From the NCBI RefSeq assembly GCF_004010195.1, contig NC_057718.1, forward strand, positions 64,653,123 through 64,717,122: 64,000 bases of DNA, in the 5' to 3' direction. The translations under genes were made by a program, and so were the position numbers. How positions within the stretch are numbered: position 1 is the first letter of the stretch; each line of letters opens with the position of its first letter. Under the pieces are notes generated by a model that ran no database searches, was not told where the DNA came from, and was given only the letters and a program-made list of their open reading frames with translations. This stretch comes from Chiloscyllium plagiosum. Its lineage: Eukaryota. Positions 1 through 59,939 of this stretch are shown here, in pieces.

Positions 1-363
1 CTTTGTTTTGAACTATAGGTTAGTTATTAATTATTGATTGATTTATTTTCTTTGGATTAAATTGGTCTCTCAAATTGTCTCTTACAAGCTCAAAAGGATG
101 GATGATATTAAGTCCCTGCTCTTCAAGAGAACTCAGGCTTTATAACAAGGCTCTGTATCAAATTCTCACTCACCTACGCTTCTCTGACTGGTTGGACTTT
201 CAGGTTTAGCTGGGCTTGATTTGTTAGGTGCTTTCCAGATACTGAAAATTATGACATGAAGCTGGAATCCTAATTTCTGCTGCGAGGGGCAATGGAATTT
301 CTTTTGTTGGGTTTTTAGAGAGTGAGGCTGATATTCTGATTCTTCGGTGGGATTATATTCTTC

Positions 364-570
364 CAGAGCTGGAAATGTGTTGCTGGAAAAGCGCAGCAGG
401 TCAGGCAGCATCCAGGGAACAGGAGAATCGACGTTTCGGGCATAAGCCCTTAAGGGCTTATGCCCGAAACGTCGATTCTCCTGTTCCCTGGATGCTGCCT
501 GACCTGCTGCGCTTTTCCAGCAACACATTTCCAGCTCTGATCTCCAGCATCTGCAGACCTCACTTTCTCC
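364..570. mobile_element. Penelope-terminus palindromic insertion (perfect 176-bp palindrome plus 3' tail)
   Basis: 364-539 is a perfect inverted repeat with no spacer (centre 451/452). TSD TTATATTCTTCCAG at 353-366 and 571-584. Confidence 0.9.
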
Positions 571-1745
571 TTATATTCTTCCAGGGATGTTTTTGGATGG
601 AAAGACGAACAAGAGAGAAAGCTTTGTTCCTACAGTGAGATTCTGACTACTTATTCCAGTTTTAAGCATTAAAAGGTTTAATTGCACATTTTCCCATGAA
701 TTAAGATGACAAATGCAAAATATTTCAGGATTTACAAAGGCAAAATTCTTTCTGATATTGTTCTATTTAAAAATCAGTTCAGGGGTACTCATAAGTGCCT
801 CAAAACATCTGAAACGTGATATTCCTTCTCATTGCCAACGTCAGTCTTTTCACCACATTTAGGAATGCAGAGCTCAATTTTAACCCATTAAAAATCCATC
901 CCTTGTACAGCATCAAAATTGGGGATTGGTCCTACTTTTCCGTTCTACTTTTGTTGTGCCCTTGAGAGTTCTGGGTGTATCTTTGGAATGTTTTGCTCCT
1001 GGAGAGATCATGTCCTTTGATCTTTTTAATTAGAACATCACATTTGATTCTAAAGATTGATATACTTAACTTATAGCTTTTACTGTCTGGGTGGAATCTT
1101 ACCAGGCACTGAAAGACGTGGGCTATAGTGAGATGCGTGGTAGATCACTAAGGTTATTAGTGAGCCCCATCTCAATGTCGAGATCATCACGTTGCATTTT
1201 GCTCATTACTTTTCTCAAGCACCTTGAAGAGACGAGTTCCCAGTTGATGCTCATAATTGTTTATTAAATGTCTCATTAACAGTCCAACTCACTGCGGCTG
1301 CAAACTTACCAAACTCACCAAAGAAACCAACCATCCACATGGAAACAAGACTGTTTCTTAGTCAGTTCATTTTGCTTGCTGTCATAGCACTCACTCACTA
1401 CATTTGCCTTATCTTACCTTTTTGCACTTTGCATCCAGAGGTGCCAGGGTCTTACTACTTTTATCCTGTCTTGATATTTAGTGCGCGCACAACCAGCTTG
1501 ACTCTTTCTGCCCCTTTGGAGGCTGCTTTCTTTCTAGAATGAGACAGATGCATGTACTAAGACAAATTAAAATGGGTGGTACAACTGTCACTTTTGGTGT
1601 ATGTGGAGAAATATCCCTAGCAAATGAGTAAGCAGAGCAGAGGACATGCAGGCTTAGTAGTTTCAGGGGTTTGGGTGGGTGACAGTGAGTGAGGAAAGAT
1701 GTTGCTAGCAATAATGAGAGTGTTGGAGCATGAGCCTTATTGGGA

Positions 1746-2080
1746 GGTGGACCAGTGGCTCATTGGTTAGCACTGCTGCCTCACAGTTGACCTGGGTTCA
1801 ATTCCAGCCTCAAGCAACTATCTGTGTGGAGTTTGCACATTCTCCCCGTGTCTGCGTGGGTTTCCTACCAGTGCTCCAGTCTCCTCCCACAATCCAAAGA
1901 TGCGTAAGTTAGGTGAATTGGCCTTGCTAAGTTGCCCACAGTATTTAGGGATGTGTAGGTTAGGTGCATTAGTCAGGAGTAAATGTAAAGTATAGGGGAA
2001 GGTGAAAGGTTACTCTTCAGAGGATTGGCGTGGCCTTGTTGGGCCAAATGGCCTTTTTTGATACTGTAGAGATTCTATGA
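1746..2080 (+). mobile_element. tRNA-derived HE1/V-SINE-like SINE
   Basis: A-box (tggctcattgg), B-box (ggttcaattcc), central gtgtggagtttgcacattctcccc domain, LINE-derived tail. Confidence 0.85.
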
Positions 2081-2504
2081 TAACAGTAGTAAAGAGAGTT
2101 TAAAGTTTCAGAAGGAAGATGGTTGCATGTATGCTGACAGAGTGGAGAAGCGCATTTACCTTCTTCCTACAGAACTGGATGTTCCTTCAGACCAGCTGAG
2201 ACTGTTGTAACCTGGATGGCGAGATGAGATGTCAGTATAATGGCTTCCACTGCTGGTCCTGTGTGGTTGATAACGTTCCACCTTTGCATCACCCCATCAG
2301 AGCGAGGCATGGGTTTCTGCCATTTTGGCCATATCCAGGGCAAATGTCAGGAACCACACAGGGCTGTTCTAAACTGCCAGTGCTTGTCCAGGAGTACATG
2401 AGCTTTTACATATGATGCCAGTGCCAGGAATTCCGGTCAATTCCAGGATCTCCTGTGAGTAGGTTGCACCAGGAATGGAACGTGGTAAGATGGGGTGGAA
2501 ATCA

Positions 2505-2848
2505 TATCATAAAAGAATCATAGAATCCCTGCGGTGTGGAAACAAGTCATTTGGCCAAACAAGTTCACACTGACCCTCTGAAGAGTAACCCCCCCAGACC
2601 CATTGCTGTATGTTTACTGTTGACTAATGCTCACAACCCTGAACACTATGGGCAATTTAGCATGGCCAATTCACCAGACCTGCACATCTTTGGATTGTGG
2701 AAAGAAACCAGAGCTCCCAGAGGAAACCCACACAGACACGGGGAGAATGTGCAAACTCCACACAGACAGTTGCCCGAGGTTGGAATCAAATCCAGGTCCC
2801 TGGCGCTGTGAGGCAGTAGTGCTAACCGTTAAGCCACCAAGCCGCCCC
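2505..2848 (-). mobile_element. HE1/V-SINE-like SINE
   Basis: Reverse complement of the same SINE family, with a (tctatga)-type tail. Confidence 0.85.
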
Positions 2849-3097: not shown

Positions 3098-4087
3098 GTG
3101 AGTATTAATATCATTTTCTTTGGTAGTGTTTTCCAGAAATATATTGCCAATATAATTGTATTTGATATTAGTATTGCAGGACTTTCTTTAGACTTGAGCT
3201 ATTTTCTTCAGATTTTCTGCTCCTTGTAAACACAGAATCATGGCACTTTACTGTTGCAGCCATGGCACATACCTTTCCTTACTGTAGTCAAGTATCTTTC
3301 TGATCTGTCAGCCAAGATATTCAGTAGCTGTAGGCCATCTGACCACATCACTTACAGAATTCAATTCTACATTTACCCTGTGTTCACATGCATACCTGTG
3401 AAGCATGTCAGAGCAGCAATTTGCCATTCAGCACCCTCAGTCCTCCCAGCCATTCAATTGGCTGATAGCTGATCCATATCTTGGCTTGATTTAACTACCA
3501 TGGTTTGATCTTCTAAAACCTTTAGCCAATCAGGATCTCTCAAACTTAGTTTTAGCATTTTCAATTGATCTAGCTTCAAATGCTTCTTGAGAGGGAGAGA
3601 CAGCAAGAGAGAGTGAGAGATTCCTGTTACTTTCATGTAAAAACTCGTTTTCTGACAGCCAGAATGGTTTAGCTAATTTGTAAAATTATATCATTTGTTC
3701 AGGGCTCCCCCATTTTTCTAGGAGGAGAGAAGACAGTTTGACTGACTGGGATCAAGACGTTCCATCTGTTCATTTTAGCATAAAACACAAAAATTCTGGA
3801 AATACACATTTAAAATCTTTCAGAAACAAACTCAGTTACTGGTCTTTCATTTGTATCCTTGATCAGAATGGAAGTTTGCAATTTGAATGGACATTTTAGT
3901 AAGATTGAAAAAAATAAACAAAATTAAAGGAGAGGGGATAGAACCGCAGATGCAGATGGAGCTTTATGTGTGTTAGTGGGTAGCTAATGGAAATGCAAAC
4001 TGTTTTTAAAGAGCAGTTACAGATAAAATACATCAGAAGTGAGGCCACACAATGATGCTGGTTAAGAGACCACCTAATTTGTTGATA

Positions 4088-4262
4088 AAAGCAGAAAGAA
4101 CTGCAGGTGCTGAAAATCAGACACAAAAATAGAAATTGTTGAAAAAGCACAGCAGGTCTGGCAGCATCTGTTGAGAGAAATCAGAGATAACGTTTTGAGT
4201 CAAGTGATCCTTCCTCAGAACTAGTCACTCAAATCAAAATGTTAACTTTGATTTCTCGCCAC
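4088..4262. mobile_element. older Penelope-terminus insertion with degenerate hammerhead
   Basis: TSD AATTTGTTGATA at 4076-4087 and 4263-4274. Minus strand reads agtt-CTGAGGA..AAAA-c-gtt, followed by a short inverted arm. Confidence 0.7.
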
Positions 4263-4322
4263 AATTTGTTGATATATCAGTCTAACGCTTATGTTATTTT
4301 AGAGATTTCTAGGCTGCAAAGT

Positions 4323-13434: not shown

Positions 13435-14500
13435 AGAAATTAAGAGCAGAAGTAGTCCATTCAACATTGACCCTGCTGGAACATTCAAGATGAGGATGGC
13501 TGATCCTCGATCTCATTGTCATATTTCTGCTTTCTCCTAACACCTCTTGATGCCTTTAAAATTTAAACATTTATGTATCTCTTTCCTGAATATGTTCAAT
13601 AACTTGACCTCCACAGCCTTGTATGGTCAAGAATTTAAGTGGTTCACTACTATCCAAGTGAAGAAATCTTTCTTCATCTCAGTCCTAAATGATCTAGTCC
13701 ATATCCTGAGATTGTGTCATTGGTTCTATACTGCACAACTTAGGAAAACATCATCTCTGCATCTAATTTTTCCAGACCTGTTAGTATTTTACATGTTTTA
13801 ATCAGATTCCCTCTCATTCTTCTGAACTCTAGTGAAAACAGGCTTTTCATAGGGCTGGAAATGTGTTGCTGGAGAAGCGCAGCAGGTCAGGCAGCATCTA
13901 GGGAACAGGAGAATCGACGTTTCGGGCATTAGCCCTTCTTCAGCCCTTCCCTAGATGCTGCCTGACCTGCTGCGCTTCTCCAGCAACACATTTCCATCTC
14001 TGATCTCCAGCATCTGCAGACCTCATTTTCTCTTCTCATAGGGCTGTCCTGCTAACCCCAGTATCAGCCTCCACTGCTCTCCCTCTATGGCAAGTGCCTC
14101 CTTGCTTAAGTAGGGAGACCAAAACTGTATTTAGTACTCTAGCTGTGGTTTCACCGAGGCTCTATATAACTACAGCGAGACATCCCCACTTCTGAACTAA
14201 AATCTTCTAGCAATGAAGACCAATTTACCATTTTCCATCCTAATTGCTTGCTGCACTTTTATATCTATTCCATTGACTGGTGTACTAGGACACAGAGATC
14301 CCTTATACATCCACGCTTCTCATATCACAATTTATTTTTCTATTTTCCATACTGAAGTGTATAACTGTATATTTAGCGGTATTGTACTGGATCTGCCCTG
14401 TGTTTGTCCACTCCCTCGAGTCGTCTCAATCATCTTGAAGCCTCATTGCATCCTCATTACAGCTCAGATTCCCAACCAATTTTGTGTCATCAGCGAACGT
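13435..14500 (-). mobile_element. CR1 LINE 3' fragment (interrupted by the palindromic element at 13854)
   Basis: CR1 RT C-terminal and 3' UTR motifs on the minus strand. Confidence 0.75.
13854..14035. mobile_element. Penelope-terminus palindromic insertion with intact hammerhead core on the minus strand
   Basis: TSD TCATAGGGCTG at 13847-13857 and 14036-14046. Minus strand CTGAAGA-a-gggc-taat-gccc-GAAA-c-GTC at 13943-13916. Confidence 0.88.
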
Positions 14501-33760: not shown

Positions 33761-33970
33761 TGAAACAAACCAAAAACAGAAATTGTTGGAGAGACTCAGC
33801 AGGTCTGACAGCTTTTGTGAAGCAGCAGAAACTGCAGTTCTGAAGGGGGGGGGTCATTGAATTTGAAACATTAGCTCTGTCTCCTCTTGACAGATATTGA
33901 AACCTGCGGAGTTTCTCCAGCAATTTCGGTTTTATCTGTTTCAGATCTGCTGTTCTTTGTTTTGTTTTAG
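33761..33970. mobile_element. old palindromic Penelope-terminus insertion
   Basis: TSD CATACAAATGTC at 33749-33760 and 33971-33982; degenerate inverted arms. Confidence 0.75.
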
Positions 33971-34023
33971 CATACAAATGTCAATGAACCATTCCATTTT
34001 ATTTCCAACAATACACATCTTAT

Positions 34024-34256
34024 AAACAAAAATGGAAATTGCTGGAAAAGCTCAGCAGGCCTGGCAGCATCAGTGAACAGACATCAGAACCAACATTTCA
34101 GGTTGAGTGATCCTTCCTCATTCTGAATGAGGGAGGGTCACCTGACCCAAGACATTAACTCTGATTTCTCTCCACAGATGCTGCCAGATCTACTGAGATT
34201 TTCCAGCAACTTCTATTTTGTTTCTGATTTACAGCATCTGCGGTTCTTTCAGTTTT
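34024..34256. mobile_element. old palindromic Penelope-terminus insertion
   Basis: TSD AATA(C/T)ACATCTTAT at 34010-34023 and 34257-34270; inverted arms around ~34120. Confidence 0.78.
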
Positions 34257-35340
34257 AATATACATCTTATGCTGTTTCCTTTAATTTCAAGTTGCAGACA
34301 CTGTTAGCTTTGATTCTATTTAATTTCAAACATTACTCACGTCAGCAATCAGTCAGGAGGATATACATGTATTCCCATCTGTTCAAATCGTCAGATCCTT
34401 CAGCTTTTCACGTGCAAGTTACCAAAGAATGCAAAAATGAGCTCTTCTTGTAATATAAAGATCACTCATGTAATAACAGATTGACACAAACCTACCACTC
34501 CCTACTTTGATCTTGATTTGATCACCACTCATCCAAGGTTAGTGAATAGTGCATTCTCACGCAAGGAAATCTTACTCTGTTTGGTGTTGATCCGTTGGAG
34601 ACCAGAAATCTGCCCAGGCCCATGCAAAGGATGTGCCCCTGTTCTTGGCCAAAAATGACATGGTCAACAGGCAGGGGGACATCACGCAGGCAGGTAGGAA
34701 TGTAAGATGGAGCAGTCCACAATACTCTCACTATTGTGGTGCCTTCAACATGCAAGCACTCACTGTCTACAAAGAAAGGCTACCTTGGTGCTGAAGAATG
34801 TCTGCTGCATATACACCAGACCTGTACTCCATTCCTTTAGCCATGGGAGCACAGCATCAATGGCAAGGTGAAAGGGGAATAACAACTGATTCTTTGTATT
34901 GACTAAATTAATGACCAGCAACATCTGAGAGTGTTGGAAATGAATAAGACACAAGGCAGAAGTCTGGATGCTAACTGGGCAAATGAACTTAAAACTTGCA
35001 AATAGAACTATCCAACCAGCTTGGTAATCCCGGAGACATCCTGCTCTCTGGTTACCTCTGACTTTTTAGGGTCCCTGGACCATTATCCTTCATTCCTCTC
35101 AATGATGCACCTCATGGACCATATCAAGATCATTATCCTCAGAGAATACCTGTCTCTCCTGCATCTCTGCCTCATTTAATGCAGTGCCCCTTTGATGGCT
35201 CAGTTTTGTAGAGTGCACCAAAAACAATAGGGAAACCCTGTCTGGACATCATTATATGGCTCCATCTGACTGGTACAGGCAATATAACTTGATCTTTAGG
35301 AGGCCTGCTCCACAACTTTGTCACACCCTTGTCAAAGTGT

Positions 35341-35455
35341 AAGAGCAAGTGAGGACTGTAGATGCTGGAGAGATGGGCTTATGCCCGAAAGGTCGATTCT
35401 CTTGCTCCTCGGATGCTGCCTCACCTGCTATGCTTTTCCAGCTCCACACTTTTCG
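35341..35455. mobile_element. short Penelope-terminus insertion
   Basis: TSD ACCCTTGTCAAAG(T/C)GT at 35325-35340 and 35456-35471. Confidence 0.75.
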
Positions 35456-37860: not shown

Positions 37861-38066
37861 AGCTAAAAATGTGTTGCTGGTAAAGCGCAGCAGGTCAGGC
37901 AGCATCCAAGGAGCAGGAGAATTGATGTTTTGGACATGAGCCCTTCTTCAGGATCATGCCCGAAATGTTGATTCTCCTGCTCCTTGGATGCTGCCTGACC
38001 TGCTGCGCTTTTCCAGCAACACATTTTCAGCTCTGATCTCCAGCATCTGCAGCCCTCACTTTCTCC
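37861..38066. mobile_element. palindromic Penelope-terminus insertion
   Basis: TSD TGTGTAA(A/C)TAGCTA at 37852-37865 and 38067-38080. Confidence 0.85.
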
Positions 38067-38296
38067 TGTGTAACTAGCTAGTGTAGTTTAGTTTCTGGTC
38101 AATGGTAATCTCTAGGATGTTGATATTGAGTGAGTTAGTAATGGCATTGTTACTGAATGGCAAGGGGCTTTGGGTATTTCTGTCTTTTTGGAGTTGGCCA
38201 TTGCCTGACATTTGTATGGAACAAATATTACTTGGCACTTTTTCAACCTAAACCTAGATATTGTCCAGATCATACTACATATGTTCACAGTGTCAA

Positions 38297-39455
38297 GAGT
38301 GTGTTTTTGGGAAAACACAGCAGGTCAGGCAGCATCTAAAGAGCAGGAGAATCAACGTTTCAGGCATAAGCCCTTCAACAGGAATGAGGCTTGTGGGTCG
38401 GGCTGAGAGATAAATGGGAGTGGAGTGGGGTTGGGAAGGTAGCTGAGAAAGCGATAGGTGGATGAAGATGAGGGAGAAGGTGATAGGTCAGAGGGGGGAG
38501 TGATGGACATGTCTGGAGGGTGGTGCCAAGTTGAAGGCTTGGGACTAGGATAATGTGGGGGGAAGGGAAATGAAAGAGCTGTTGAAATCCACATTTTTTC
38601 CGTGTGGTTACCAGGACCCAAGGCGAAATATGAGGCGTTCTTCCTCCAGGCATCGGGTGGTAATGGTTTTGCGGTGGAGGAGGTCCAGGACCTGCATGTC
38701 CTTGATGGAGAGGGAGGGGGAGTTGAAGTGTTCAACCACAGGGCAGTGGGGTTGGTGGCTGAGGGTGTCCCAGAGATGTTTTCTGAAACAATCCACAAGA
38801 AGGCGTCCTGTCTCCCCAATGTAGAGGAGACCACATTGGATGCAACGGATGCAGTAGATGACATTTGTAGAGGTACAGGTAAATTTCTGATGGATGTGGA
38901 AGGATCCCTTGGGGCCTTGGACGGAGCTGAGGGGATTGGTGTTGGCGCAGGTTTTGCACTTCCTTTGGAGGCAGGGAATGGTGCCGGGAGTGGGCTGTGG
39001 GTTGGTGTGGAGTGTGGATCTGATGTGGGAGTTGCGGAGAGAATGGTCTCTCCGGAACGCTAATAGGGGTAGGGAGGGAAATATATCTTTGGTGGTGGGG
39101 TCCGTGTGGAGGTGGCGGAAGTGGGGAGGTAGCGGAGGATTTTGTGCTTTGTGCGGAGGTTGGTGGGGTGGAAGGTGAGGACGGGGGGTTCTGTCCTTGT
39201 TGCGTTGAGTGGCGTTGGGTTCAAGGGCAGTGGTGCATTAAGTGGAGGAGATGTGCTAGAGGGCATTGTCAACCATAAAGGAAGGGAAGTTACGAACATG
39301 GAAGAAGGAGTTCATCTGGAACATTCTGAGGTGGAATTGGTCATCCTAGGAACAGATGCAGTGGTGGCGGAGGATGTGGGAATAAGGGATGGTGTTGTTA
39401 CAGGAGGTAATGTGGGAGGAAGTGTAGTCTAGGCAGCTGTGGGAGTCGGTGGGCT
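38297..39455 (-). mobile_element. Penelope (Neptune-type) 3' fragment with GIY-YIG endonuclease and terminal repeat
   Basis: PVLTFHPTNL, FRKHLWD, VVEHFNSPS, RCLEEERLIFRLG, followed by the terminal repeat. Confidence 0.88.
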
Positions 39456-41687
39456 ACACATATATACATATGGACACAGGCTACTTCAAAAGCAAGCACT
39501 TCCATATTTTGCCTTAATGATAGAGGGGAAAAAATTCCAATTTGGTTTCCACTTGGAATATAGGTTGGATACAGTTAAAATCTAAGCCTGTTTCTTAAAC
39601 TGTCTGTCTGAATTTCAACAAAAGAGAGCATTTCATTTCACTCTTGCAACAGTGCAGTCTGATGTATTGACTTTGCTGAAACCTGATCCCTTCACAGGTT
39701 TGGTTTATTGGAAGCATGGCCTCCAACCGGTGGAATGTTTTCTCCAGATTCCCAGTGATCCTAGTTTTTTTGGGGCTCCTAATGCCACATTCAGTTAAAT
39801 GAGGCCTTGATGTCACTTTCACCTCACCTCCCGGGGTACAGTTCGGTTTTCTCCATGTTTAAACCAGGGTTACAATGAGAGTCGGGCAGTAAGAAAGACA
39901 TGGCAAGGTTTACAGGAACATGTTGTTGTCATTTCTAGTGTCTAGGTCAATGATAGGTGATACATCCAGTTTCATTCCCTGTTATCTTTTTTATTATGGC
40001 TAAATACAACTGAGTGGAATACTAGACCATTTCACAGAGCATTTAAGAGGGAACCACGTTGCTGAGGGACCTGTAGACGAGGTAGGACAGTGGACTCTTT
40101 TTCTGATAGATATTAGAGAACCACATGGGTTTTCTGACAAATTGTCATCCTTACTGACACTAACTTTTTTAATTCCAAATTTATTCATTAATTCAATTTA
40201 AACTGCACCAGCATTTGTGATGGGATTTGAATTCATGTCACGACAGCATTAACCTGGGCCTCCAGTCTGTAAACTGGAATTACAGCTATGCTACCACCAC
40301 CTCCTTTGTTATGTGTATAATCCAACACCTATCCTTGGGGCTGTTTCACTGCAGGGTTTCTGGTAAGATAATGAGTTAGTAATTTAACACATAAAGCTAT
40401 CAATAAATATGCCATACCAGTAGCTCCACGACCTCATGAAACCTCTAAAAGTGCCATAGCCCCATGGGGCTACTCTCTCATTCGAGAGAGAGGGACAGAG
40501 AGAGACAACTGATGCTGGTTTAACCTGAGGGTCATCACACCACAGGTAAGAAATGGGACTGAGGAGGTGAGACCTTCACAGTAACCTCAGCCAGTATAGG
40601 ATGGGATCCACTCTGTTGGTGTCACTGCATTTCAAAATAGCCATCCATGCAACTGAGCTAATGAATCCCCAATGGCCTCGAACACTGAACAGGACAAGGG
40701 TGACAGATGTAAGGAGAATAGTATCGTATGGAAAGAACAAATTTAAATTAATGCAAAAATGAGCAGTAAACCAAATGATTAATAAAGTTTTAAAAGTCAA
40801 CAAAAATGACCAACCAAAAATAAAAGGAGAAAAGAAATAATGAGGATAACCTAGCATATAATAAAAAAGACAGTAAGAGCTTCCTTAAATATATAAAAAT
40901 GTAGAGCGATGCCAAAGGGTACATTGGCCCCTTAGGGTATAAGGCTGGGGAAGCAATATTGTGGAACCAGAAATGGCATAAGAGTTGAATAGACACTTTG
41001 CATCAGTCTTCACAGTAGAAGAAATAAATTGCATCCCAAAAATACTAAATAATCAACGGGTAGATGAAATAGCAATTGGATTAAGAAGTGGGAAAATGTG
41101 AAGATATGCACTTTGACAGGAAGACTAGAGGAGCTGAATATCATTTAAATAGAGACAGACTGCAGAAAGCAATTTAAGAGTCCTCAGGGATGATTAATAA
41201 AAAATAGCATCTGGGTTCAGCAGTTAATAGGCAAGGCAAATTAAATGTTAGGCTTTACTTCAATAGGAATGGAATATAAAAATAGGGATACTGTACTAAA
41301 ACTGTACAAGGCACTAATTAGACCATAAGTGAATATACAAACAAGAAACAAAAGTGGGCCACTCAGCCATTTGACTCTGCTCCACATCACCTCTATATCA
41401 CTGCACATCCCTAATAATCTTACACACCCATGGTAATCAAGAATCTAGCTACACCTACTTTAAATATATTTAAAGATTTTCCATTCACTGCTTTTTGAGG
41501 AAGGGAATTCCAAATACTCACAACCCTATAAGAGAAAAAAAAATTCATTATTTCTGTCTTAAATGTGTGACTTCTTATTTTTAAACAATGACCCCTCATT
41601 CTAGATTCACCCACAAGAAACAGACTTTCTTTATCCACTCAGTCAAGATCCCTCAGAATCTTATATATTTCATTTCAATCACCTCTG

Positions 41688-46500: not shown

Positions 46501-46558
46501 CTGGATCTACTCAATGTATCTGTAAATAGAAGACGACAATAGGAGTAGTTTGTAGGTC

Positions 46559-46781
46559 GAAAAGTTTGGCGTTGGAAAAGCACAGCACGTTAGGCAGCAT
46601 CCAAGGAGAAGGGGAATCAATGTTTCGGGCATAAGCCCTTCATCAGGAATGTGACATTCCTGAAGGGCTTATGCCCAAAATGTCAATTCTCTGGCTCCTC
46701 GGATGCTGCCTGACATGCTGTGCTTTTCCAGCGGCACACTTTTTGACTCTGATCTCTGGCATCTGCAGTCCTCACTTTCTC
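46559..46781. mobile_element. palindromic Penelope-terminus insertion
   Basis: TSD GTAGTT(T/A)GTAGGTC at 46545-46558 and 46782-46795. Minus-strand CTGATGA..GAAA core begins at 46646. Confidence 0.85.
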
Positions 46782-46939
46782 GTAGTTAGTAGGTCCTCAA
46801 ACAGCAGCCATATAGAGTCCCTTATCACTGCTGCTTGCCTACACTTCAACCCTCCCTGTTGTACAACTGTGCCAGTCATGGTACTGCTTCTCTGGCTGCT
46901 ACTGCTTTCCCCTGAGAATCATTCTCCACCAACAGCATC

Positions 46940-47335
46940 CAAAGCTTCAACCCCAGGCCATCAATGTAGACTTCCTCAGTTTCCTCATTTCCCCTTCCCC
47001 AACCTCACCCTAGTTCCAAACCTCCAGCTCAGCACTGTCCCCATGACTTGTCCTAACTGCCTATCTTCTTTTCCACCTATCCACTCCACCCTCCTCCCTG
47101 GCCTATCACCTTCATCCCCTCCTCCACTCACCTATTGTACTCTATGCTACTTTCTCCCACCCCCAACCTCCTCTCATTTATCTCTTCACCCTTCAGGCAC
47201 TCTGCCTCTATTCCTGATGAAGGGCTTTTGCCCGAAGTGTCGATTTTACTGCTCCTTGGATGCTGCCTGAACTGCTGTGCTTTTCTAGCACCTCTAATCC
47301 AGAATCTGGTTTCCAGCATCTGCAGTCATTCTTTT
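46940..47335 (+). mobile_element. Penelope 3' end and terminal repeat
   Basis: C-rich repeat, CTGATGAAGGGCTTTTGCCC at ~47214, ccagcatctgcag tail. Confidence 0.8.
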
Positions 47336-47341
47336 TACAAA

Positions 47342-48175
47342 GCACTATACCTGCTTGATAGGGGAATGATCACAAGGGGCTGTTGCACCACTGTCCACAT
47401 TTACCCAGCTTCCCGGTGGTCATCCTCTGACTGCATAGTCCTTACTGGTGGTGGGCCCAGCTTGCTAAACATGCTATCCATGATCTACTCAGCCTAGTGG
47501 ATGCTCGTTAGTGAGTCTGCCAACAGCTCCAGCGTTCTATGCAGTAAATAAGGAGCTTGCAGCTGAACACACTTCTTGTGTATATGGTCACCACGGACAT
47601 TGGAAGATTCCAGATTTCTCACATATTGCAGGATGACCTCTCCTACCATTTCAAACTTTGTCGACTAAATCAACCTTATCAACTGCAGACAATATTTCAG
47701 GAACTGATTCCACAGCCTTACCCTTTTGTCACAAACGTAGGTCTCTCACTGTTGCTCTCTATTCCCAGCAGGCTATAGCTACAAAAACTAAGTACTTTAT
47801 CTCTCTACTTCTCACCCAGTTTGTAAACCTGGTTCCTGAGCAGTCAAGGTTATGTCACTTTTTGAGTTGTGACTTCACCTCAAGATTCTACATCTAGATT
47901 CAGCTCCACATTCGCTCTGAGTGACCCGGCTCCTCAGATATTTACCCTGCTATTGCTGTTCAATCTCATGCTTGCTCTGACTGACCCTGCTCCTCAGGTA
48001 TTTATCCTGCTGCTGCTATTGATTCCCAGATTCACTCTCCTTTGCACTGTTGCTCCTTGGAGTGACCTCGGTCCAGGCCCTGTTCCTCAGGCATTTATTC
48101 TGCCGTCACTGGTGCTGTTCACCGCCAAGTTTATTCTCCTTTGCTCTGTTGCTATCGCTGTCTGTCCTCAGACTG
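47342..48175 (-). mobile_element. CR1 5' region (ORF1 zinc-finger remnant) with ~60-bp tandem repeats
   Basis: Minus strand SSCNM*EI resembles the CR1 ORF1 CxxC start. 60-bp period repeat starting at 47914 and 47974. Confidence 0.55.
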
Positions 48176-49080
48176 ACTGATATGGCTCGTCCAGTCAGTT
48201 TCTTGTCAATGGTAACCTTTCAGGATATTGATATTGGAGATTTCAGTGATGGTAATGCTATTGAGTTGATGGCCTATGAGTATTATCATTAGACTATTAA
48301 TCCAGAGGCCTAGGTTATATTCTGGGGACCTACGTTCTGCTCTTCGGATGCTGCCTGAACTGCTGTGCTTTTCCAGCATCACTAATCCAGAATTTGGTTT
48401 CCAGCATCTGCAGTCATTGTTTTTACCAAATCCTGTCAGGGTAGATAGTGGAATTTGAATTCAATAAAAATCTAGAATTAAGAGTTTAACGGTGACTTTG
48501 AAAGCATTGCTGATTGTTAGCGAAACTTACCCGATTCAACAACGCTCTTCAAGGAAGGAAACTGCTCCTCTTACCATATCGAAAAGATAGGCAGGTGGGC
48601 AGAGGAGGTGGGGTTGCCTTATTAGTGAGGAACAAAATTAAAGTAATAGTAAAAAATGAATAGGGTCAGGTGGTGTAGAATCTGCATGTGTAGAATTGAG
48701 GAACTGCAAAGGTGAAAAAAACGTAGTTGGAGTTATGTAGTCCTTCAAACAGTAGTCAGGAGCTGGGGCACAAGATACACCAGGAGATAGAAATTGTGTG
48801 CAAGAAAGGCAAAGTTACAGTGATCATGGAGGTTTTCAATATGCAGGTGGACTGGGAAAATCAGGTTGGTGGTGATTCACAAGAAAAGGAATTTGTGGAA
48901 TGTCTACTAGATGGCTTTTTGGAGCAGCTTGTGGCGGGGCCTGTAGGGAACAGGCAGTACTGGATTTAATGCTGTGCAATGAGACAGACATGATAAGGGA
49001 GCTTAAGGAGAAGGAACCCTGAGGAAGTAGTGATCATAATATGAGTGAATTTACTCTGAAATTTGAGAAGGAGAAGATAG

Positions 49081-49383
49081 AGCTGAAACTTTATTGCTGG
49101 AACAGCACAGCAGGTCAGGCAGCATCTAGGGAACAGAAGATTCGACGTTTCGGGCACATGCCCTTCTTCAGGAATGAGCAGAGAGTGTTCAGCAGGAGAA
49201 GATAAAAGGTAGGGAGGAGGGACTTGGAGGAGTGCTGAACACTCTCTGCTCATTCCTGAAGAAGGGCATGTGCCCGAAACGTCGAATCTTCTGTTCCCTA
49301 GATGCTGCCTGACCTGCTGTGCTGTTCCAGCAATAAAGTTTCAGCTTTGATCTCCAGCATCTGCAGACCTCACTTTCTCCTCC
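49081..49383. mobile_element. very young palindromic Penelope-terminus insertion (perfect 114-bp arms, 38-bp spacer)
   Basis: Arms 49081-49194 and 49233-49346 are perfectly complementary. Perfect 14-bp TSD AAGGAGAAGATAGA at 49068-49081 and 49384-49397. Confidence 0.93.
49252..49287 (+). ncRNA. minimal type I hammerhead ribozyme motif (mirror copy at 49175-49140 on the minus strand)
   Basis: ATTC-CTGAAGA-A-GGGCA-TG-TGCCC-GAAA-C-GTC-GAAT: stem I ATTC/GAAT, stem II, palindromic ACGT in place of stem III, GUC cleavage triplet. Confidence 0.85.
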
Positions 49384-50508
49384 AAGGAGAAGATAGAATC
49401 AGAGGTAATGGTATTACAGCAGAATAAAGGCAAGTACAGAGGCATGAAGGAGGAGCTGGGCAGAATTGCAGGAAAGAACAGCAATGGCAGGAGTTACAGC
49501 AGAAATTCATCCCTAGGAAAAAGAAGCATGGCACAGGGTGGATGAGGCAACCATGGCTGACCAGGGAAGTCAGGGACTGCATAAAAGCAAAAGAGACAGC
49601 ATGTAATGTGGTGAAGGGCAGTGGGAAACCAGAAGATTGGGAAGCTTACAAAAGCAAGAGGGCAACAAAAAAAGAAATAAGGAGAGTGAAGATTAAACAT
49701 GCGGGTAAGCTAGCCATCAATATAAATGAAGACTGTAAGAGTTTCTTTTGATATATAAAGGGCAAAAGAAGGCAATATTGGACATTGGACCTTTGGAAAA
49801 TGACGCTGGAGAGATAGTAGTGGGGAACAAGGAAATGGCTGAGGAACTGAATAATTACTTTGCCTCAGTTTTCATGGTGGAAGACACAAATAATATCCCA
49901 AAAATTCAAGAGTCAGGGAGCAAAGCTGAGTATGGTGGCCATCACCAAGGAGAAGGTGGTAGAAAAACTGAATGGCCTGAATGCGGATAAATCAGCTGGA
50001 CCAGATGGACTACATCTAAAGGCGATAGCTGAAGAGATAGTGGAGGCATTAATGGTGACCTTTCATGAATCACTGGATTTGGGAGGGTCCCAGAGGATAC
50101 CTTTTTTTAAAAAGGGAATAAGGCAAAAGACAGAACATTATAGACCCATTTGCTTAATCTTGTTTGTGGAGGTTGCTTTTGAGGTAGATGGAACTTGAAT
50201 GACTGAGGAGATGGATTATTTGGAGGTTTGTGCACTTGCTCCAACCCCTTGACTTCACCTGTCCTCATTACTGACAAAATTGCTTGACACATTCAGTCCT
50301 TTCCGGAAAAAAACCTTTTCCATTTTGGGTAAGTTTCAGGCCAGGGTCTTCTCTGAATCTACTGGTGAGTTTGACTGTTCAGGGATGCTTAAAAGACATC
50401 ACTGAAGGAAACACTATAAAGATGGCTTAACCAGGCCTGGTAATAAAAGGAGCATAAATAATAAGAGAATGATAACAGATCTTCTCAGAATTCTGGCACT
50501 TGGTGTGC

Positions 50509-50928
50509 AAAGTTTGTGAGAAGATTTGTAGCTCGGGTGCTCGTTGTTGTGGTTCTGTTCACCGAGCTGGGAATTTGTGTTGCAGACGTTTCGTCCCCTG
50601 TCTAGGTGACATCCTCAGTGCTTGGGAGCCTCCTGTGAAGCACTTCTGTGATCTTTCCTCCGGCATTTGTAGTGGTTTGTCTCTGCTGCTTCCGGTTGTC
50701 AGTTCCGGTTATCAACAAACACATCGACCTGGACCCAATATACTGGCCACTGCAGTGGACAGCTGGAACTGACAACCGGAAGCGGCAGAGACAAACCACT
50801 ATAAATGCCAGAGGAAACATCACAGAAGTGCATCACAGGAGGCTCCCAAGCACTGAGGATGTCACCTAGACAGGGGACGAAACGTCTGCAACACAAATTC
50901 CCAGCTCGGCGAACAGAACCACAACAAC
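50509..50928. mobile_element. palindromic terminus of a second Penelope family (164-bp arms, 58-bp spacer)
   Basis: Arms 50543-50706 and 50765-50928. TSD ACTTGGTGTGC at 50498-50508 and 50927-50937. Spacer encodes INKHIDLDPIYWPLQ, like a Penelope ORF C-terminus. Confidence 0.88.
50850..50889 (+). ncRNA. minimal hammerhead ribozyme motif (mirror copy in the left arm)
   Basis: GCA-CTGAGGA-T-GTCACCT-AGAC-AGGGGAC-GAAA-C-GTC-TGC. Confidence 0.82.
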
Positions 50929-51220
50929 TTGGTGTGCCCTAGATGCTGTTTCCAGATATTGACCGTTCATTGCTTATGAACCAGTGATTAGAATGATTCC
51001 CAACATTTCCTTTATCAATGCTGAAGAAACATATTACAGGTCATCCATCCAGAAAAACCTCGAGTCACTCACCAAAGCATTCAACCAACTCTGAAAACAT
51101 TTCAGGGGTTTTTGCCTTCTGCACCTTATGACAAAGTTAATGTCATGTTTGATTGCTTATTATGTAAAGAAGTTTCTGCTTTAAATTTGCCTTCTATCTG
51201 TTTGAACTCACAATCCTTGA

Positions 51221-52874: not shown

Positions 52875-54047
52875 GAATACTATCTCCGGTAACTGACCCA
52901 ACACAGACATCTATTTCAAACCCACTGACTCACACAGCTACCTTAACTACACCTCCTCCCACCCCCGCCTCATGTTTAAAAAAAAGTGATCACTTACTCC
53001 CAATTCCTCTGCCTCTGCCTCTGCCTCTGCCATATCTGCTCCCAGGTGCAGCAACTCCACTCCAGGACATCCCAGATCATCAATAATGCCCTCCATCACA
53101 TCTCTTCCACTTCCTGCATCTCCATCTCCATCCCCCCAACTGCAACAAGGACACAACACCCCTGGTCCTCACATTCCACCTCAACGCATTATCCTCCACC
53201 ATTTTTGCCAACTACAATCAGACCCCATCACCAAAAACATATTTCCCTCCCCACCCTTATCTGTATTCCGCTAAGACCATTCCTTCTGCGACTCCTTCGT
53301 TCGGTCCAAATTCCTCACCCAGCACCTTGCCCTGCCACCACACAAGGTGCAAAACCTATGCCCACACATCCCCCTTCACCTCCATCCAAGACCATAGAGA
53401 GTCATTTCAACTCTGGCAGAAATTTTCCTGCACATCCTCTCATCTTATTTACTGCATCCGTTGCTCTCAATGTGGTATCCTCTACATCAGCCAACTCATG
53501 GAGCGATTCAGGGAACATCTCTGATCTGCATGCACCAAACAACCCCATCGCCATGTAGCCAACCACTTCAACTCCCCCTCACATTCCCCCAAGGACATGC
53601 AAATCCTGGCCCTCTTCCGCTGCCAATCAGTCACCCACCAAGTGGAGGAAGTATGCCTCATCTTCTGCCTTGGGACCCTTCAACCACTTGGCATCAATAT
53701 TGACTTCACCAGTTTCCAAATCTCCCCACCCCTCATGTCATCCCAGATCCAACCTTCCCACTCAACACCAGCCTCTTGACCTACCCTACCTATCCATCTT
53801 CATTCTAACCTATGCACTCCACCCTCCCCATTGATCTGCCATAATCACCTCCCACTTGCATCCACGTACTGTCATCCCATCTGCCTCCTATTTATCTCTC
53901 AGCCCCCTTCTTCCTTCACATTACTCATGAGGGCTTATGCCCGAAATGTCATATCTCCCGTTCCTCGGATACTGCCAGACCTGTGCTTTTTTCAGTGCCA
54001 CACTTTTTGACCCTGACACTCCAGCATCTGCAGTTATCATTTTCTCC
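52875..54047 (+). mobile_element. Penelope (Neptune-type) fragment: RT end, Cys linker, GIY-YIG, terminal repeat
   Basis: TDIYFKPTDSHSYL, CHHTRCKT, LIYCIRCSQCGILYI, EEVCLIFCLGTLQPLGINIDF. Confidence 0.9.
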
Positions 54048-54544
54048 TACTATCTTTAGGAGGCTTATTATCTACTCCTTGATGGCTCTAATGGAAGAAG
54101 AATGGACTGTACCGTATCTGTGCCTGGCCTCAGTAAAGAGATTACATAACAGAGTCATCAACTATGATTGAAGAGGGTAGCCCTTATCTCCGAGCATCCA
54201 TCTTTGTAACGCATCCAGCTCTTAGAATAAAACAGTAGCCTGAAAATTATCAACATATCGGTATCATGGCTGCTTCCAGACTACCTAGTACAGATTTCGA
54301 AAATGTAATAATGATGATCACAGATCATTTGGACATTGAAAAGGTAGAGGCCTTTTCCATTAATGAGTTCAGTCATATTATGGAATGGTGTTTTTTAATG
54401 TGGCAAGTATACAACCTCATACCTGGGGATATCAGTTATTTTGATAAAAAGCATTGCACTGGTTGCATCACTGATCTTGTCATAGGGAAACAAGATGGAA
54501 TGGTATGATCTGGCACAGATATAATCAATGATAGCTTTCATACA

Positions 54545-56900: not shown

Positions 56901-57164
56901 TAACATGTTATTTCAGTCGTTGGTTTGTTTCCAATACCATCTTTTTTTTTTAGCTTTTTGTAATTATCTCTTTGCCTCAATTAATCAGATTATGGGCCAT
57001 CCCTACAGATGTTATTCAGCTGTTGATACTTTACTCACACCTTCTGACACTCTTGATCATCTGCAGAAACCTGTTATTTGGCCTGTTGACACCCCACTCA
57101 CACCATTTGTATGATCTTTTCATCTCTCTGATTATAAAGTCTGTGCTTGGATGCTGTCTTCACT

Positions 57165-57201
57165 TCATCTGATGAAGGGGCACCGCTTCGAAAGCTTGTG
57201 A
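57165..57201 (+). ncRNA. minimal hammerhead motif in a third Penelope-terminus variant
   Basis: TCAT-CTGATGA-A-GGGGC-ACC-GCTTC-GAAA-G-CTT-GTGA, with palindromic AAGCTT in place of stem III. Confidence 0.72.
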
Positions 57202-58342
57202 TTTCAAATAAACCTATTGGACTATAATCTGGTGCAATGTTCCTTTTGACCTTGTCCACCCCAATCAAACACTGGCACCTCCACATCACTACAATAACAG
57301 TGTTATCCAAAAGTAAGTTCTTGTCATTGTCCTCTGTTTCTTTGTCAATCCTTAATGCAGAGTCATCTGGACTTGAAATGTTGCCTTGCTTTCTCTCCAT
57401 GAATGCTGCTTGACCTGCTGTGGTCTCCAAGATTTTTGTTTTCAGCTTAAATCTCGTGGGTTAAGGAGTTATCTTGTTAGCCCGTTCAGTCATACTGATG
57501 CAAATGCTGTCATTGTTCTATTATTAGCTTGTGCTTCTAGTGAGAGATTGTCAGAATTACTTTTTAAATTGAAGTGTGCAGGAACATAATCTATCAATGT
57601 GAGATGCTCTGGTACAACTAGATTTGACATATTAATTTGTGAGACAATGGGGTCTGCAGATGCTGGAGAAATCAGAGTTGATGAAGCATAGCGATGGAAA
57701 AGACACAGGTCAAGCAGCATCCGAGGGACAAGAGAGTGAACGTTTCAGGGAGGACCTGCTTCGTTATGGACCCGAGGTTGTGAAATTTACTGCCCTCCTC
57801 CTTTGATATATCAATTTACATCACTGCAAGTAATAGAAGATTCTTACACAAGGATGGCAATGTTTTGATCTCACCATTGTTAAAATGGTACTTGACGACA
57901 AAGCTTTGAGATTATACTTGTAATGTCACTTCCAGTCACTCAATAGGTTTACTGCCTTGTACTTAGTTCCTGGTATTGGCTACCCTTTACAATATACAGT
58001 ACATAAGGAACCAACTTAGACTCAAACCATAAAGCAGAGTACTTTTAACACTCTGGTTTATGCTGGTTTGACCAAGTGATTTGACACACTGATCCTACAA
58101 TAAACAACCTGTTGCTGCCTCATTCCTGCACTTCCATAGTAAAATCCCTGTATGATAGATTCCAAACAATTATGAGAAATACAAATCGCTGGTCCTAATT
58201 AGTTGATTTTTTTAATTGCATTATCCGCATTGGTTAGCAGGCATTTAATTTCAAAGGAAATGTATAGCTTTGATACCAACTATAAAGATCATAGTTTAAC
58301 AACTTTTGACTGGTGTCAAAATGGCTCCGTTTAATTTTACAG

Positions 58343-58429
58343 GCTGACAGGAAAGGTGATGACATACATTTGCACGACAATGTGGCATGAAACTGCGGAA
58401 GAAATGATACAAATATCTTCATTGTTCAG
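58343..58429 (+). CDS. chs: chitin synthase copy B exon (LTGKVMTYICTTMWHETAEEMIQISSLFR); functional status unknown
   Basis: ttttacag acceptor and AG|GTAAGC donor, 87 nt, open. Matches the IY.CATMWHET..EM...S.FR motif at the start of the catalytic domain. Confidence 0.85.
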
Positions 58430-58575
58430 GTAAGCTTATTGGAATATGGGTCTCTAGGAGTTCTACCTATAATAATGTTTATATGGGCAGCTCAGGAATA
58501 AGCCAAAGCAACCACCACTTGCAATATATTTTTAGTTAAAAATCACAAATCTGGTGTTGCGTGATTTGTAACTTT

Positions 58576-58802
58576 GGAGAAAGTGAGGACTGCAGATGCT
58601 GGAGATCAGAATCAAGACTGTGGTGCTGGAAGAGCACAGCAGATCAGGCAGCAGCAGAGGAGCAGGAGAATCGACGTTTTGGTGTCAGCCATTCATCTGG
58701 AACTGTGAATCCCAATGAAAGTCTTATGCCCGAAACGTCGACTCTCCTGCTCCTCAGATATTCCTGACCTGCTGTGCTTTGCCAGCACCCCACTCTCAAC
58801 TC
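58576..58802. mobile_element. palindromic Penelope-terminus insertion (older)
   Basis: TSD TGATTT(G/T)TAACTTT at 58562-58575 and 58803-58816. Confidence 0.8.
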
Positions 58803-59939
58803 TGATTTTTAACTTTGTCCACCCCAGTTCAACACAGGCACCTCCACAACTTATTTTAGTCAAATTAAAGCACTTCAGTTTTTTTTGTTACGAGATAATT
58901 TTTGTAAACGTTTGTTTACTTCTAATCGATTTTAATTCCTTCTTGACCCAGGAGATTAGCGTTTCCTCTCATTTTCTTACCTGCTGTACGAGCCTCTCGG
59001 GTCTGTGCTCAGCAGTGATTTTCAGTGTCAATGTTGTGGTCACCAGCCAATTATAATAACCATAGCTTCAAAACAGCATGCACAGCCATTCGTCTTGCAG
59101 GGAACCTTTGTAGGAGATGGTAATATACTGTTTTCTTTTTAAACTTTATTCATGGATGTGGGGCATTGACAGCAAGATCAGTAATATGTGCCCCATCTTT
59201 AATTATCCTTGAAAAATTGGCAGTGAGTTGCCCCCTTGAACAGCTGCAGGCTATGTGATGAGATAGCTCCGAATGTGCTTCTTGGAAGGGAGCTCTGTAA
59301 TGTGACTCACTGAAAGTGAAGGATCAGCGATACATTTCCAAGTGAGGCTGATGTGTGACTTGGAGAGCAACTTGAACATGGTGGTTTTCTTCCTCCGGGT
59401 TATGAAAATCATGAGGTGCTGCAGAATGAGCCTTGGTGTATCATTACTGTGCACCTTGTGAATGATAACCACTGAAAAGATGCAATGACAATGTTGGATG
59501 ACATGCTAGTTACATGCATTGCTTTCTTCCATACGGTATAGAGTTATATTCATTCAGGCAAGTGTAGCTGTGGGATTGTGCCTTGTAGATTGTGGATAGG
59601 TTTTGGTGAGACAGGAGGTAAGTTACTCGCCACAGAATTCTTGTAACTATTCTAGTTATGTGACTGGTCGGGTTAGGTTGAGTTAATGACAAGCCTCCAG
59701 AAAGATGATAATAGTAGTTTCAGTGACAGAGAGCAATTACATGTCATGAGAAGATCATTCTCCCTTGTTGAAGATGGTATTGTCTTGCATTTGTCTGCTG
59801 ACATTGCTATGTGTATGTAATCATCAGTGAACATCCCGATTTCTGCTCTTATGAGGGAAGAAAAGTCATTGATGAAGCAGCTCATGATGGTTGCTCTGAG
59901 AACACTACCTTGAGGAATTCTTGTAGAGATGGCTTTTGA

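What the first reader, a model, noticed from the sequence alone, without database searches (positions are those of the whole stretch)
353..58816. Family of fold-back, hammerhead-bearing Penelope-terminus mini-insertions with 11-16 bp TSDs
Seen: eleven short insertions of about 115-420 bp (starting 364, 4088, 13854, 30275, 33761, 34024, 35341, 37861, 46559, 49081, 58576), plus a different family at 50509. Each consists only of a Penelope terminal sequence, mostly as two inverted copies, and is flanked by an 11-16 bp duplication, most often 14 bp. One arm carries an extra ~30-nt tail (ctccagcatctgcag..cactttctcc) and the other stops short. The fold-back point differs between copies. Established: Penelope-like elements form inverted pseudo-LTRs and carry minimal hammerheads. 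Inference: these are either independent abortive integrations with a fold-back step, or a non-autonomous retrozyme/MITE-like family. Different junctions per copy favour independent formation at each insertion. The density, about one per 5-6 kb, is striking.
Basis: partly seen in the sequence, partly recalled or inferred. Interest (0 to 1): 0.75.

Follow-up and report, generated by a model that had tools for sequence, protein, structure and literature searches.

The report
Head-to-head Penelope retroelement stubs, shark
The short hairpin-shaped insertions are real but are cut-off ends of Penelope-like jumping genes in an already described layout; their anatomy fits both broken DNA ends starting a copy, rather than one copy folding back on itself.

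Summary
All 12 insertions are real. Each is two head-to-head arms of a Penelope-like element (PLE) end inside an 11-16 bp duplication (7 of 12 are 14 bp; 2 of 400 random pairs score as well). Longer copies in the window carry RT and GIY-YIG remnants. The layout (inverted pLTR, one-sided 30-40 nt tail, TSD, opposite-strand minimal hammerheads) is published. They are not one family, a MITE or a retrozyme: four subfamilies, 12 different junctions, a strict hammerhead core at only 5 of 12 loci. 'Fold-back' fits poorly: in 6 of 12 the tail-less arm holds element sequence that the tailed arm lacks, and a lone tail-less arm with its own TSD exists (38291-39464). Best mechanism (about 0.6): twin priming. 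Both overhangs of a ~14-nt staggered cut prime reverse transcription at two fixed RNA sites ~35 nt apart, and host end-joining seals the two cDNAs. Sixteen of 24 arms stop at the hammerhead's 5' half, upstream of its cut site, perhaps the RNA's start. Ordinary class, modest mechanistic interest; one window, no genome available.

The parts
353..584 (.). Insertion 364 (young A): TSD 353-366/571-584; tail-less arm 367-451 (-), tailed arm 452-570 (+); arms 100% identical, no spacer, both stop at A9 of the hammerhead so no intact core
4076..4274 (.). Insertion 4088 (family B): TSD 4076-4087/4263-4274; tailed arm 4088-4223 (-), 39-nt second arm 4224-4262 (+) ending far from the usual site
13844..14046 (.). 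Insertion 13854 (young A): 14-bp TSD; tail-less arm 13858-13943 (-) with hammerhead core 13916-13943; 3-nt filler repeating nearby sequence; tailed arm 13947-14032 (+) starting past the cut site
30261..30682 (.). Insertion 30275 (young A): 14-bp TSD; tailed arm 30275-30413 (-), tail-less arm 30414-30668 (+) reaching 156 nt further 5'; cores 30375-30402 (-) and 30581-30608 (+)
33749..33982 (.). Insertion 33761 (family B, decayed): TSD 12 bp exact (15 with one mismatch); tail-less arm 33761-33832 (-), tailed arm 33833-33970 (+)
34010..34270 (.). Insertion 34024 (family B): 14-bp TSD; tail-less arm 34024-34123 (-), tailed arm 34124-34256 (+); both stop at about the same base
35325..35471 (.). Insertion 35341 (older A): 16-bp TSD (13 exact); tail only 35341-35371 (-) joined to tail-less arm 35372-35455 (+), no overlap; same junction in contigs of organism B
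37852..38080 (.). Insertion 37861 (young A): 14-bp TSD; tail-less arm 37866-37953 (-), tailed arm 37954-38066 (+)
38276..39479 (-). Single tail-less arm of 1.17 kb (38291-39464) with 15-bp TSD (2 mismatches), ending at the same site as the tail-less arms; carries a broken RT-thumb/Zn-linker/GIY-YIG remnant
46545..46795 (.). Insertion 46559 (older A): 14-bp TSD; tail-less arm 46559-46653 (-) with core 46619-46646, tailed arm 46654-46781 (+)
46937..47342 (+). Single tailed PLE end with last codons of the ORF; no TSD found
48335..48429 (+). Single tailed stub starting just 3' of the hammerhead cut site; no TSD found
49068..49397 (.). Insertion 49081 (young A): exact 14-bp TSD; tail-less arm 49082-49232 (-), tailed arm 49233-49383 (+), both 151 nt, 100% identical over 113 nt; cores 49144-49171 (-), 49256-49283 (+)
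50498..50937 (.). Insertion 50509 (separate PLE family, 7-bp stem II): 11-bp TSD; tailed arm 50509-50706 (-), 4-nt filler repeating nearby sequence, tail-less arm 50711-50926 (+); cores 50585-50618 (-), 50853-50886 (+)
52879..54048 (+). Single tailed PLE copy of 1.17 kb with broken RT-thumb/EN remnant; no TSD found
57150..57290 (+). Stub of a further hammerhead-bearing family (core 57169-57197); its 3' end is the uninterrupted paralogue of the 58576 target
57641..57762 (-). Single tailed stub, decayed; possible TSD with 2 mismatches
58562..58817 (.). Insertion 58576 (older A): TSD 14-15 bp; tailed arm 58576-58709 (-), tail-less arm 58710-58802 (+); inserted in the 3' end of another repeat

Best explanation
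These are severely 5'-truncated, dead-on-arrival insertions of endonuclease-positive Penelope-like retrotransposons, each built anew at its site (identity about 0.93). Most likely mechanism (about 0.6): twin priming. (1) The GIY-YIG endonuclease nicks both strands about 14 nt apart, leaving two 3' overhangs [TSD shown; nicking inferred]. (2) One overhang primes reverse transcription at the tail end of the RNA with no base-pairing; the other primes at a second fixed site about 35 nt upstream, helped by 2-4 nt of pairing [two fixed ends and the overlap shown; priming inferred from published in vitro data]. (3) Both cDNAs run toward the RNA's 5' end, through the uncleaved hammerhead, and mostly stop at its 5' half [shown], either because the template starts there or because the motif blocks RT [not resolved]. 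(4) Host end-joining links the two free cDNA ends, bluntly or with a short templated filler, giving a head-to-head inverted repeat with a one-sided tail inside a TSD [junctions shown; pathway inferred]. The hammerheads are passengers.
For: Linked coding remnant hits 13 proteins, the top three from cartilaginous fishes; 3 of 3 tested carry RVT_1 plus C-terminal GIY-YIG, some below Pfam's cut-off. Tail-less and tailed arms end at two sharp positions in the family A alignment of 20 arms. The tail-less arm reaches 14-156 nt further 5' in 6 of 12 loci, within 8 nt in 4, and the tailed arm further in 2. 35341 has non-overlapping arms, the classical twin-priming product. A lone tail-less arm of 1.17 kb has its own TSD. 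TSD/template overlap at the tail-less end totals 22 nt over 11 loci against about 8 expected, P=3e-4; at the tailed end 4 nt over 5 loci, P=0.44. Fillers at 13854 and 50509 repeat sequence about 10 nt away; 364 and 49081 are blunt. 16 of 24 arm ends lie at hammerhead positions -11 to +13 (0 of 20,000 geometric simulations; by locus 10 of 12, P=0.001) and 21 of 24 pass the cut site. PMC11167929: a purified PLE protein cleaves and extends both target strands, starts at two RNA sites that bound the tail, and uses uncleaved RNA.
Against: No intermediate was seen; this is anatomy of 12 loci in one window, with junctions placed by hand and uncertain by several bases in old copies (arms 74-82% identical). 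The 6-versus-2 bias alone is not significant, and lopsided central deletion of a palindrome after insertion could produce it. The tailed arm is the longer at 4088 and 33761, and the second arm of 4088 ends about 45 nt from the usual site. PMC11167929 reports priming without homology, whereas I see 2-4 nt at one site. The overlap would also arise if that end were a microhomology-joined junction. No empty-site joint appeared among the 15 of about 12,300 joints shown. Same-end pairing of arms is no more than the general clustering predicts (P=0.35). No TSD was found for the three single tailed copies at 46937, 48335 and 52879.
Confidence: 0.62

Rival explanations
1. Fold-back: one cDNA primed at the tail folds onto itself and copies itself; lopsided centres come from later deletion of the palindrome centre.
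For: The two arms of a young locus share variants (364: 80/80 own versus 75-77/80 in other young copies; 49081: 80/80 versus 63-69). Four of 12 are nearly symmetric. Fold-back inverted duplications are reported at L1 sites (bioRxiv 10.1101/2024.12.14.628481, passages). Palindrome-centre deletion is recalled, from no call.
Against: Does not explain why the second arm always stops about 35 nt short at one site, nor the lone tail-less copy with a TSD. A zero-spacer centre (364) and blunt junctions offer no primer. Needs one-sided deletions in 6 of 12 loci, including 49081 whose arms are still 100% identical. Shared variants are equally expected from one RNA copied twice.
Confidence: 0.17
2. Self-priming on an antisense template, or a hairpin intermediate trimmed by the endonuclease at the tail (Arkhipova et al. 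2013).
For: Proposed for head-to-head PLE palindromes in PMC3846280 (Discussion read). It also lets the tail-less arm be the longer.
Against: Needs a primer match at the junction, which is absent or 0-1 nt where the reference sequence allows a check. The later in vitro work used sense RNA and saw target-primed extension of both strands.
Confidence: 0.1
3. A non-autonomous retrozyme- or MITE-like family that amplifies as a unit.
For: High density; intact cores in young copies; one joint type links a tail end to hammerhead position -4 (5, 23 and 18 contigs), which could be head-to-tail units elsewhere in these genomes; one symmetric joint at -3/-3 recurs in 2, 11 and 14 contigs. Retrozymes are reported as PLE derivatives (bioRxiv 10.64898/2026.07.22.740005).
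Against: 12 of 12 junctions differ; four subfamilies; ends asymmetric; no tandem unit in the window (10 TRF rows, longest period 17); cores lie on opposite strands and 3 of 12 loci have none. Both joints have 'between: not known' and may reflect subfamily divergence.
Confidence: 0.06
4. Assembly artefact (read fold-backs) or later recombination between two nearby copies.
For: Perfect palindromes can arise as long-read chimeras (recalled).
Against: TSDs at 12 of 12, a one-sided tail, arms diverged to 74% in old copies, and the 35341 junction lying inside single contigs of two runs of organism B (records 3 and 19).
Confidence: 0.03

Closest known systems
Insertion units of EN+ Penelope-like elements: inverted 5'-truncated pLTR, one-sided 30-40 bp tail, TSD (PMC3846280; PMC8557442; PMC8969392)
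   Same: Head-to-head inverted arms, tail on one arm, TSD, heavy 5' truncation, palindromic junctions.
   Different: Here the whole insert is only the two end arms; TSDs are 11-16 bp against 8-10 bp in the rotifer examples read; arm ends pile up at the hammerhead.
Poseidon element of Anolis carolinensis in vitro (PMC11167929)
   Same: Two RT start sites bounding the tail, near a stem-loop; uncleaved RNA as template; both target strands extended.
   Different: Reports no homology at priming; the parts I read do not connect two-strand priming to the inverted layout. Family A here has a Neptune/Nematis-type CxxxCxxC linker.
Minimal hammerheads of metazoan PLEs (PMC4209133)
   Same: CUGANGA core, extra base before stem II, G-C first pair, no helix III loop, palindromic 15.2-16.2; pairs 100-700 bp apart on opposite strands are described there.
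   Different: Many arms here are cut inside the motif; stem I is 2-4 bp; cleavage untested.
LINE-1 twin priming and dual priming (PMC2837659, passages)
   Same: Both target 3' ends prime; inverted segments inside a TSD of about 14 bp; 35341 has the non-overlapping layout.
   Different: In L1 the second primer site is variable and the segments do not overlap; here it is fixed about 35 nt from the first and the arms usually overlap fully.
Non-LTR retrozymes of animals (bioRxiv 10.64898/2026.07.22.740005)
   Same: PLE-derived, non-coding, type I hammerhead.
   Different: Defined by head-to-tail tandem units each with a complete hammerhead; not seen in this window.

Membership tests
EN+ Penelope-like element (truncated copies) | Linked to an ORF with RT and C-terminal GIY-YIG endonuclease | tested here: met
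   Family A arm sequence runs into coding remnants at 38518-39465 and 52879-53770 that match RT+GIY-YIG proteins. For family B and 50509 no linked coding match was shown; they are assigned by layout, hammerhead and, for B, similarity to A.
EN+ Penelope-like element (truncated copies) | [quoted passage not shown] | tested here: met
   VIYCIRC...LLYIG in window 38611-39237 (-) (definition in PMC8557442).
EN+ Penelope-like element (truncated copies) | Inverted 5'-truncated copy and one-sided 30-40 bp tail | tested here: met
   12 of 12 head-to-head; tail 32-40 nt in 9 of 11 measurable.
EN+ Penelope-like element (truncated copies) | Target-site duplication | tested here: met
   12 of 12; paralogous empty site for 1 of 13 tried; orthologous empty sites not obtained.
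Neptune/Nematis clades | CX2-5CxxC linker between RT and EN | tested here: met
   CLQRKCKTC in the family A remnant.
Neptune/Nematis clades | RT phylogeny placing it in Neptune | not tested
   No tree built; no named clade references in hand.
Minimal hammerhead of PLEs | Complete core plus stem II | tested here: met
   Strict descriptor: 10 hits versus 0 in 10 shuffles, 8 of them in 5 of the 12 loci; stem II keeps pairing across families, 3 of 4 pairs with a two-sided change in one of 10 sequences. Not met at 364, 35341, 58576.
Minimal hammerhead of PLEs | Self-cleavage | not testable with these tools
   Monomer folds do not form the active shape, z -1.0 to +0.5; 21 of 24 arms were copied through the cut site.
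Non-LTR retrozyme | At least two head-to-tail units each with a complete hammerhead | tested here: not met
   No such tandem in the window.
Non-LTR retrozyme | Circular RNA intermediate | not testable with these tools
   One poly(A) single-cell run, 2% read.
MITE | Uniform length, symmetric terminal repeats, one shared centre, fixed short TSD (definition recalled) | tested here: not met
   115-418 bp, one-sided tail, 12 different junctions, TSD 11-16 bp.
Twin-primed insertion | Each target end joined to its own priming site, inverted segments inside one TSD | tested here: met
   layout only.
Twin-primed insertion | Both cDNAs made from target 3' ends in one event | not testable with these tools
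   Needs in vitro or de novo insertion data.

The most novel reading that the evidence does not exclude
Programmed twin priming is the normal PLE integration route, and these stubs are run-off copies of the mRNA's own 5' end: the protein binds the pLTR-ORF junction, primes at both fixed sites, and both cDNAs fall off a transcription start a few bases upstream of the hammerhead (an initiator-like YYANWYY lies at -4 to -9 in 9 of 11 copies, which are not independent). That would explain in one step the head-to-head repeat, the one-sided tail and the flood of solo hammerheads in animal genomes, and replace the antisense self-priming model. A weaker hint: two loci have arms of equal length (85/86, 151/151; post hoc P=0.03), as if two RTs moved in step.
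Probability: 0.3. Interest if true: 0.6.

Novelty: new member of a known kind. Interest (0 to 1): 0.3.

Why it matters
As a feature it is ordinary and recurs all over this genome. Its value is as material: how PLEs make inverted repeats with a one-sided tail is called undefined in PMC8557442, and a genome with so many TSD-bounded stubs allows a direct count of arm-end offsets, junction types and primer matches that separates twin priming from fold-back. It also warns annotators that these stubs can pass for MITEs, pre-miRNAs (one search gave only sub-threshold miRNA hits) or active ribozymes.

Tried and rejected
No genome is held for this window, so the genome-wide junction count could not be run. 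Laying 4 of the 24 listed runs on 30000-49900 at 88% likeness was swamped by other copies (340,000-410,000 contigs per DNA run); only 15 of about 12,300 joints were shown, none an empty site, and no RNA start or end pile-up was listed. No RNA holder was listed for window 1-3000. A 19-base arm motif gave 48 metagenome, 0 viral and 38 prokaryote loci; of these 86 only one matched over 30 nt or more (44 nt, bacterial), so no related loci. Pfam found nothing in 7 of 7 decayed PLE frames. Rfam found no hammerhead. In-window empty-site search succeeded for 1 of 13 loci. Withdrawn: 'three loci with equal-length arms, P=0.002'; re-placing the 50509 junction left two, P=0.03. The downstream stem-loop near the start sites is conserved in sequence but shows almost no two-sided change (1 of 17 pairs), so it is weak evidence. 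Cleaved RNA as template was considered: no arm of the 24 starts at the cut site (+29); two start at +38 and +39. PDB search with one host exon found nothing relevant. Literature: searches listed no paper that states a twin-priming model for PLEs; I read listings only for most hits, and Arkhipova 2006, Evgen'ev and Arkhipova 2005 and Pyatkov 2004 were not read and may hold one. The supplementary figures of PMC11167929 gave no matching text and may show such a model; bioRxiv supplements were not seen. Dfam and Repbase were not available.

Full report
Setting. The window is from a cartilaginous fish: the exon at 7382-7597 is 99% identical to a Chiloscyllium punctatum chitin synthase and 75-96% to those of other sharks and rays. 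No whole genome was held, so the analysis rests on this window, four public runs and papers.

1. Observation. All 12 sites are as described. A search for the best flanking repeat gave 11-15 bp with 0-1 mismatch at 12 of 12 sites, scores 11-14; 2 of 400 random pairs reached 11. With boundaries set by hand the lengths are 11, 12, 12, 14 (seven times), 14-15 and 16. TSDs are 67% A+T against 59% for the window. For 58576 the target is the 3' end of another repeat, and an uninterrupted paralogue at 57226-57285 aligns gap-free over 60 nt (77%) with one copy of the duplication and needs 14 gaps with two. The same test found no usable paralogue for the other 12 loci tried.

2. Identity. The arm sequence continues into longer copies at 38291-39464, 46937-47342 and 52879-54048. 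[quoted passage not shown] The twelve fall into young A, older A, B and the separate 50509 family. PLE-derived DNA is about 12% of the window, the twelve stubs 4.5%. In one search the arm-bearing bins drew summed contig depths of 10^5-10^6 against 10-30 in unique bins; the tool warns that this is no copy number, so I take it only as 'very abundant'.

3. Hammerheads. A descriptor written from PMC4209133 (parts 1-2 of 4 read) gave 10 hits with a perfect core and at most one stem mismatch, against 0 in 10 shuffles; 8 lie in 5 of the 12 loci. Allowing one core mismatch gave 32 hits against 3-10 in 5 shuffles and reaches 9 of 12 loci. 364 and 35341 are cut inside the core; 58576 is decayed. Rfam has no hit to a hammerhead. 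Paired motifs lie on opposite strands, so one transcript cannot form the dimer these minimal motifs need; that paper already notes opposite-strand pairs 100-700 bp apart. 21 of 24 arms extend past the cleavage site, so the template was uncleaved there, as found in vitro (PMC11167929, parts 1-2 of 4 read).

4. Anatomy that bears on mechanism. (a) Two sharp 3' ends: in 20 aligned family A arms the tail-less arms end within a few bases of one site and the tailed arms about 35 nt further on; tail length is 32-40 nt in 9 of 11 measurable loci. (b) The tail-less arm reaches further 5' by 14, 38, 38, 54, 89 and 156 nt at 37861, 13854, 49081, 50509, 35341 and 30275; the arms end within 8 nt at 364, 34024, 46559 and 58576; the tailed arm reaches further at 4088 (15) and 33761 (44). 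A strand that folds back cannot copy sequence it lacks. (c) 35341 is tail plus tail-less arm with no overlap; the same junction lies inside single contigs of two runs of organism B (records 3 and 19). (d) 38291-39464 is a lone tail-less arm with a 15-bp TSD, so the second site works alone. (e) At the tail-less end the TSD overlaps the template by 22 nt over 11 loci (35341 dropped, no template to compare), P=3e-4; at the tailed end by 4 nt over the 5 loci where the continuation is known, P=0.44. (f) Junctions are all different: blunt at 364 and 49081, short fillers repeating sequence about 10 nt away at 13854 and 50509, which resembles polymerase-theta end-joining (recalled). (g) 16 of 24 arm 5' ends lie between -11 and +13 of the hammerhead's C3 (0 of 20,000 simulations with geometric stopping; by locus 10 of 12, P=0.001). 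The loci were picked for being short, which favours this result. Four head-to-head joints among the 15 shown map to -3/-3, +6/-1, +6/-5 and +10/+38, in line with it but weak, since alignment ends may reflect subfamily divergence. (h) Arms of one young locus are closer to each other than to other loci: one RNA, one source locus, or later conversion.

5. Mechanism. Twin priming accounts for (a)-(f) and (h) with a sense template: each 3' overhang of a roughly 14-nt staggered cut carries its own antisense cDNA, and joining their free ends gives a head-to-head repeat whose asymmetry is the distance between the two start sites. PMC11167929 supplies the biochemistry (both strands cut and extended, two start sites bounding the tail, predicted dimer) but a search of its text for 'inverted', 'palindrom' and 'twin' found no such model. 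The L1 analogue is in PMC2837659 (passages). Results against: the 6-to-2 bias is not significant alone, lopsided deletion of palindrome centres could mimic it, two loci go the other way, the in vitro work saw no priming homology, and three single tailed copies lack a TSD. For (g), the template may start just upstream of the hammerhead or RT may stall there; in Drosophila virilis the start lies within the pLTR (PMC2377424, passages), and one search gave no RNA ends. An earlier count of three equal-length pairs was wrong; two remain.

6. What is known. Inverted truncated copy, one-sided 30-40 bp tail and TSD are standard PLE features (PMC3846280, passages and Discussion; PMC8557442, passages; PMC8969392, passages). 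Penelope is listed for the whale shark (PMC8455134, one passage). Retrozymes need tandem units with complete hammerheads (bioRxiv 10.64898/2026.07.22.740005, part 1 of 5 and passages); none is in the window. Fold-back products at L1 sites are described in bioRxiv 10.1101/2024.12.14.628481 (passages). Earlier notes of this scan report the same stubs and the same pile-up in other windows of this genome; they are unchecked AI notes and were read after my analysis. Searches listed no PLE twin-priming paper, but older key papers were not read.

7. Verdict. Real; new members of a known kind. Interest 0.30. Identity as truncated PLE insertions about 0.93; twin priming about 0.6; the bolder run-off model 0.3, worth 0.6 if true.

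Noticed in passing
window 5032-12770 (+); exons near 5032-5100, 6704-6815, 7382-7597, 10408-10509, 12449-12770: 3' part of a chitin synthase gene (99% to a Chiloscyllium punctatum protein). 4088, and probably 364, lie in its introns.
   Followed up: partly
window 58341-58430 (+): One exon of a second, more diverged chitin-synthase-like gene or fragment (48-60% identity to the middle of the proteins), suggesting a tandem paralogue; insertion 58576 is about 130 bp downstream.
   Followed up: partly
window 58540-58860 and 57150-57290: Insertion 58576 sits in the 3' end of another hammerhead-bearing repeat family.
   Followed up: yes
window 39454-39464: The 5' junction of the lone tail-less copy seems to carry a short filler resembling the adjacent TSD.
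   Followed up: no
window 5824-6604, 17664-18141, 18740-19015, 29277-29473, 57345-57455: Further decayed PLE pieces, one with RT core remnants.
   Followed up: partly
window 21860-21954 and 22095-22189: A 95-bp exact direct duplication 235 bp apart inside a LINE remnant.
   Followed up: no
window 30350-30290 (-) and equivalents: A 9-bp stem closing the region of the two start sites is conserved in sequence across subfamilies, with almost no compensatory change.
   Followed up: partly
window 46781 to 47210 joint: Contigs (5, 23 and 18 in three runs) join a tail end to hammerhead position -4; possibly head-to-tail units elsewhere in these genomes.
   Followed up: no
window 62457-62484 (+): A strict minimal-hammerhead descriptor hit outside any PLE piece I mapped; may be chance.
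   Followed up: no
window 55457-55846 (-), 27977-28252 (+), 25858-26304 (+): LTR-type RT/RNase H remnants and a LINE RT remnant.
   Followed up: no
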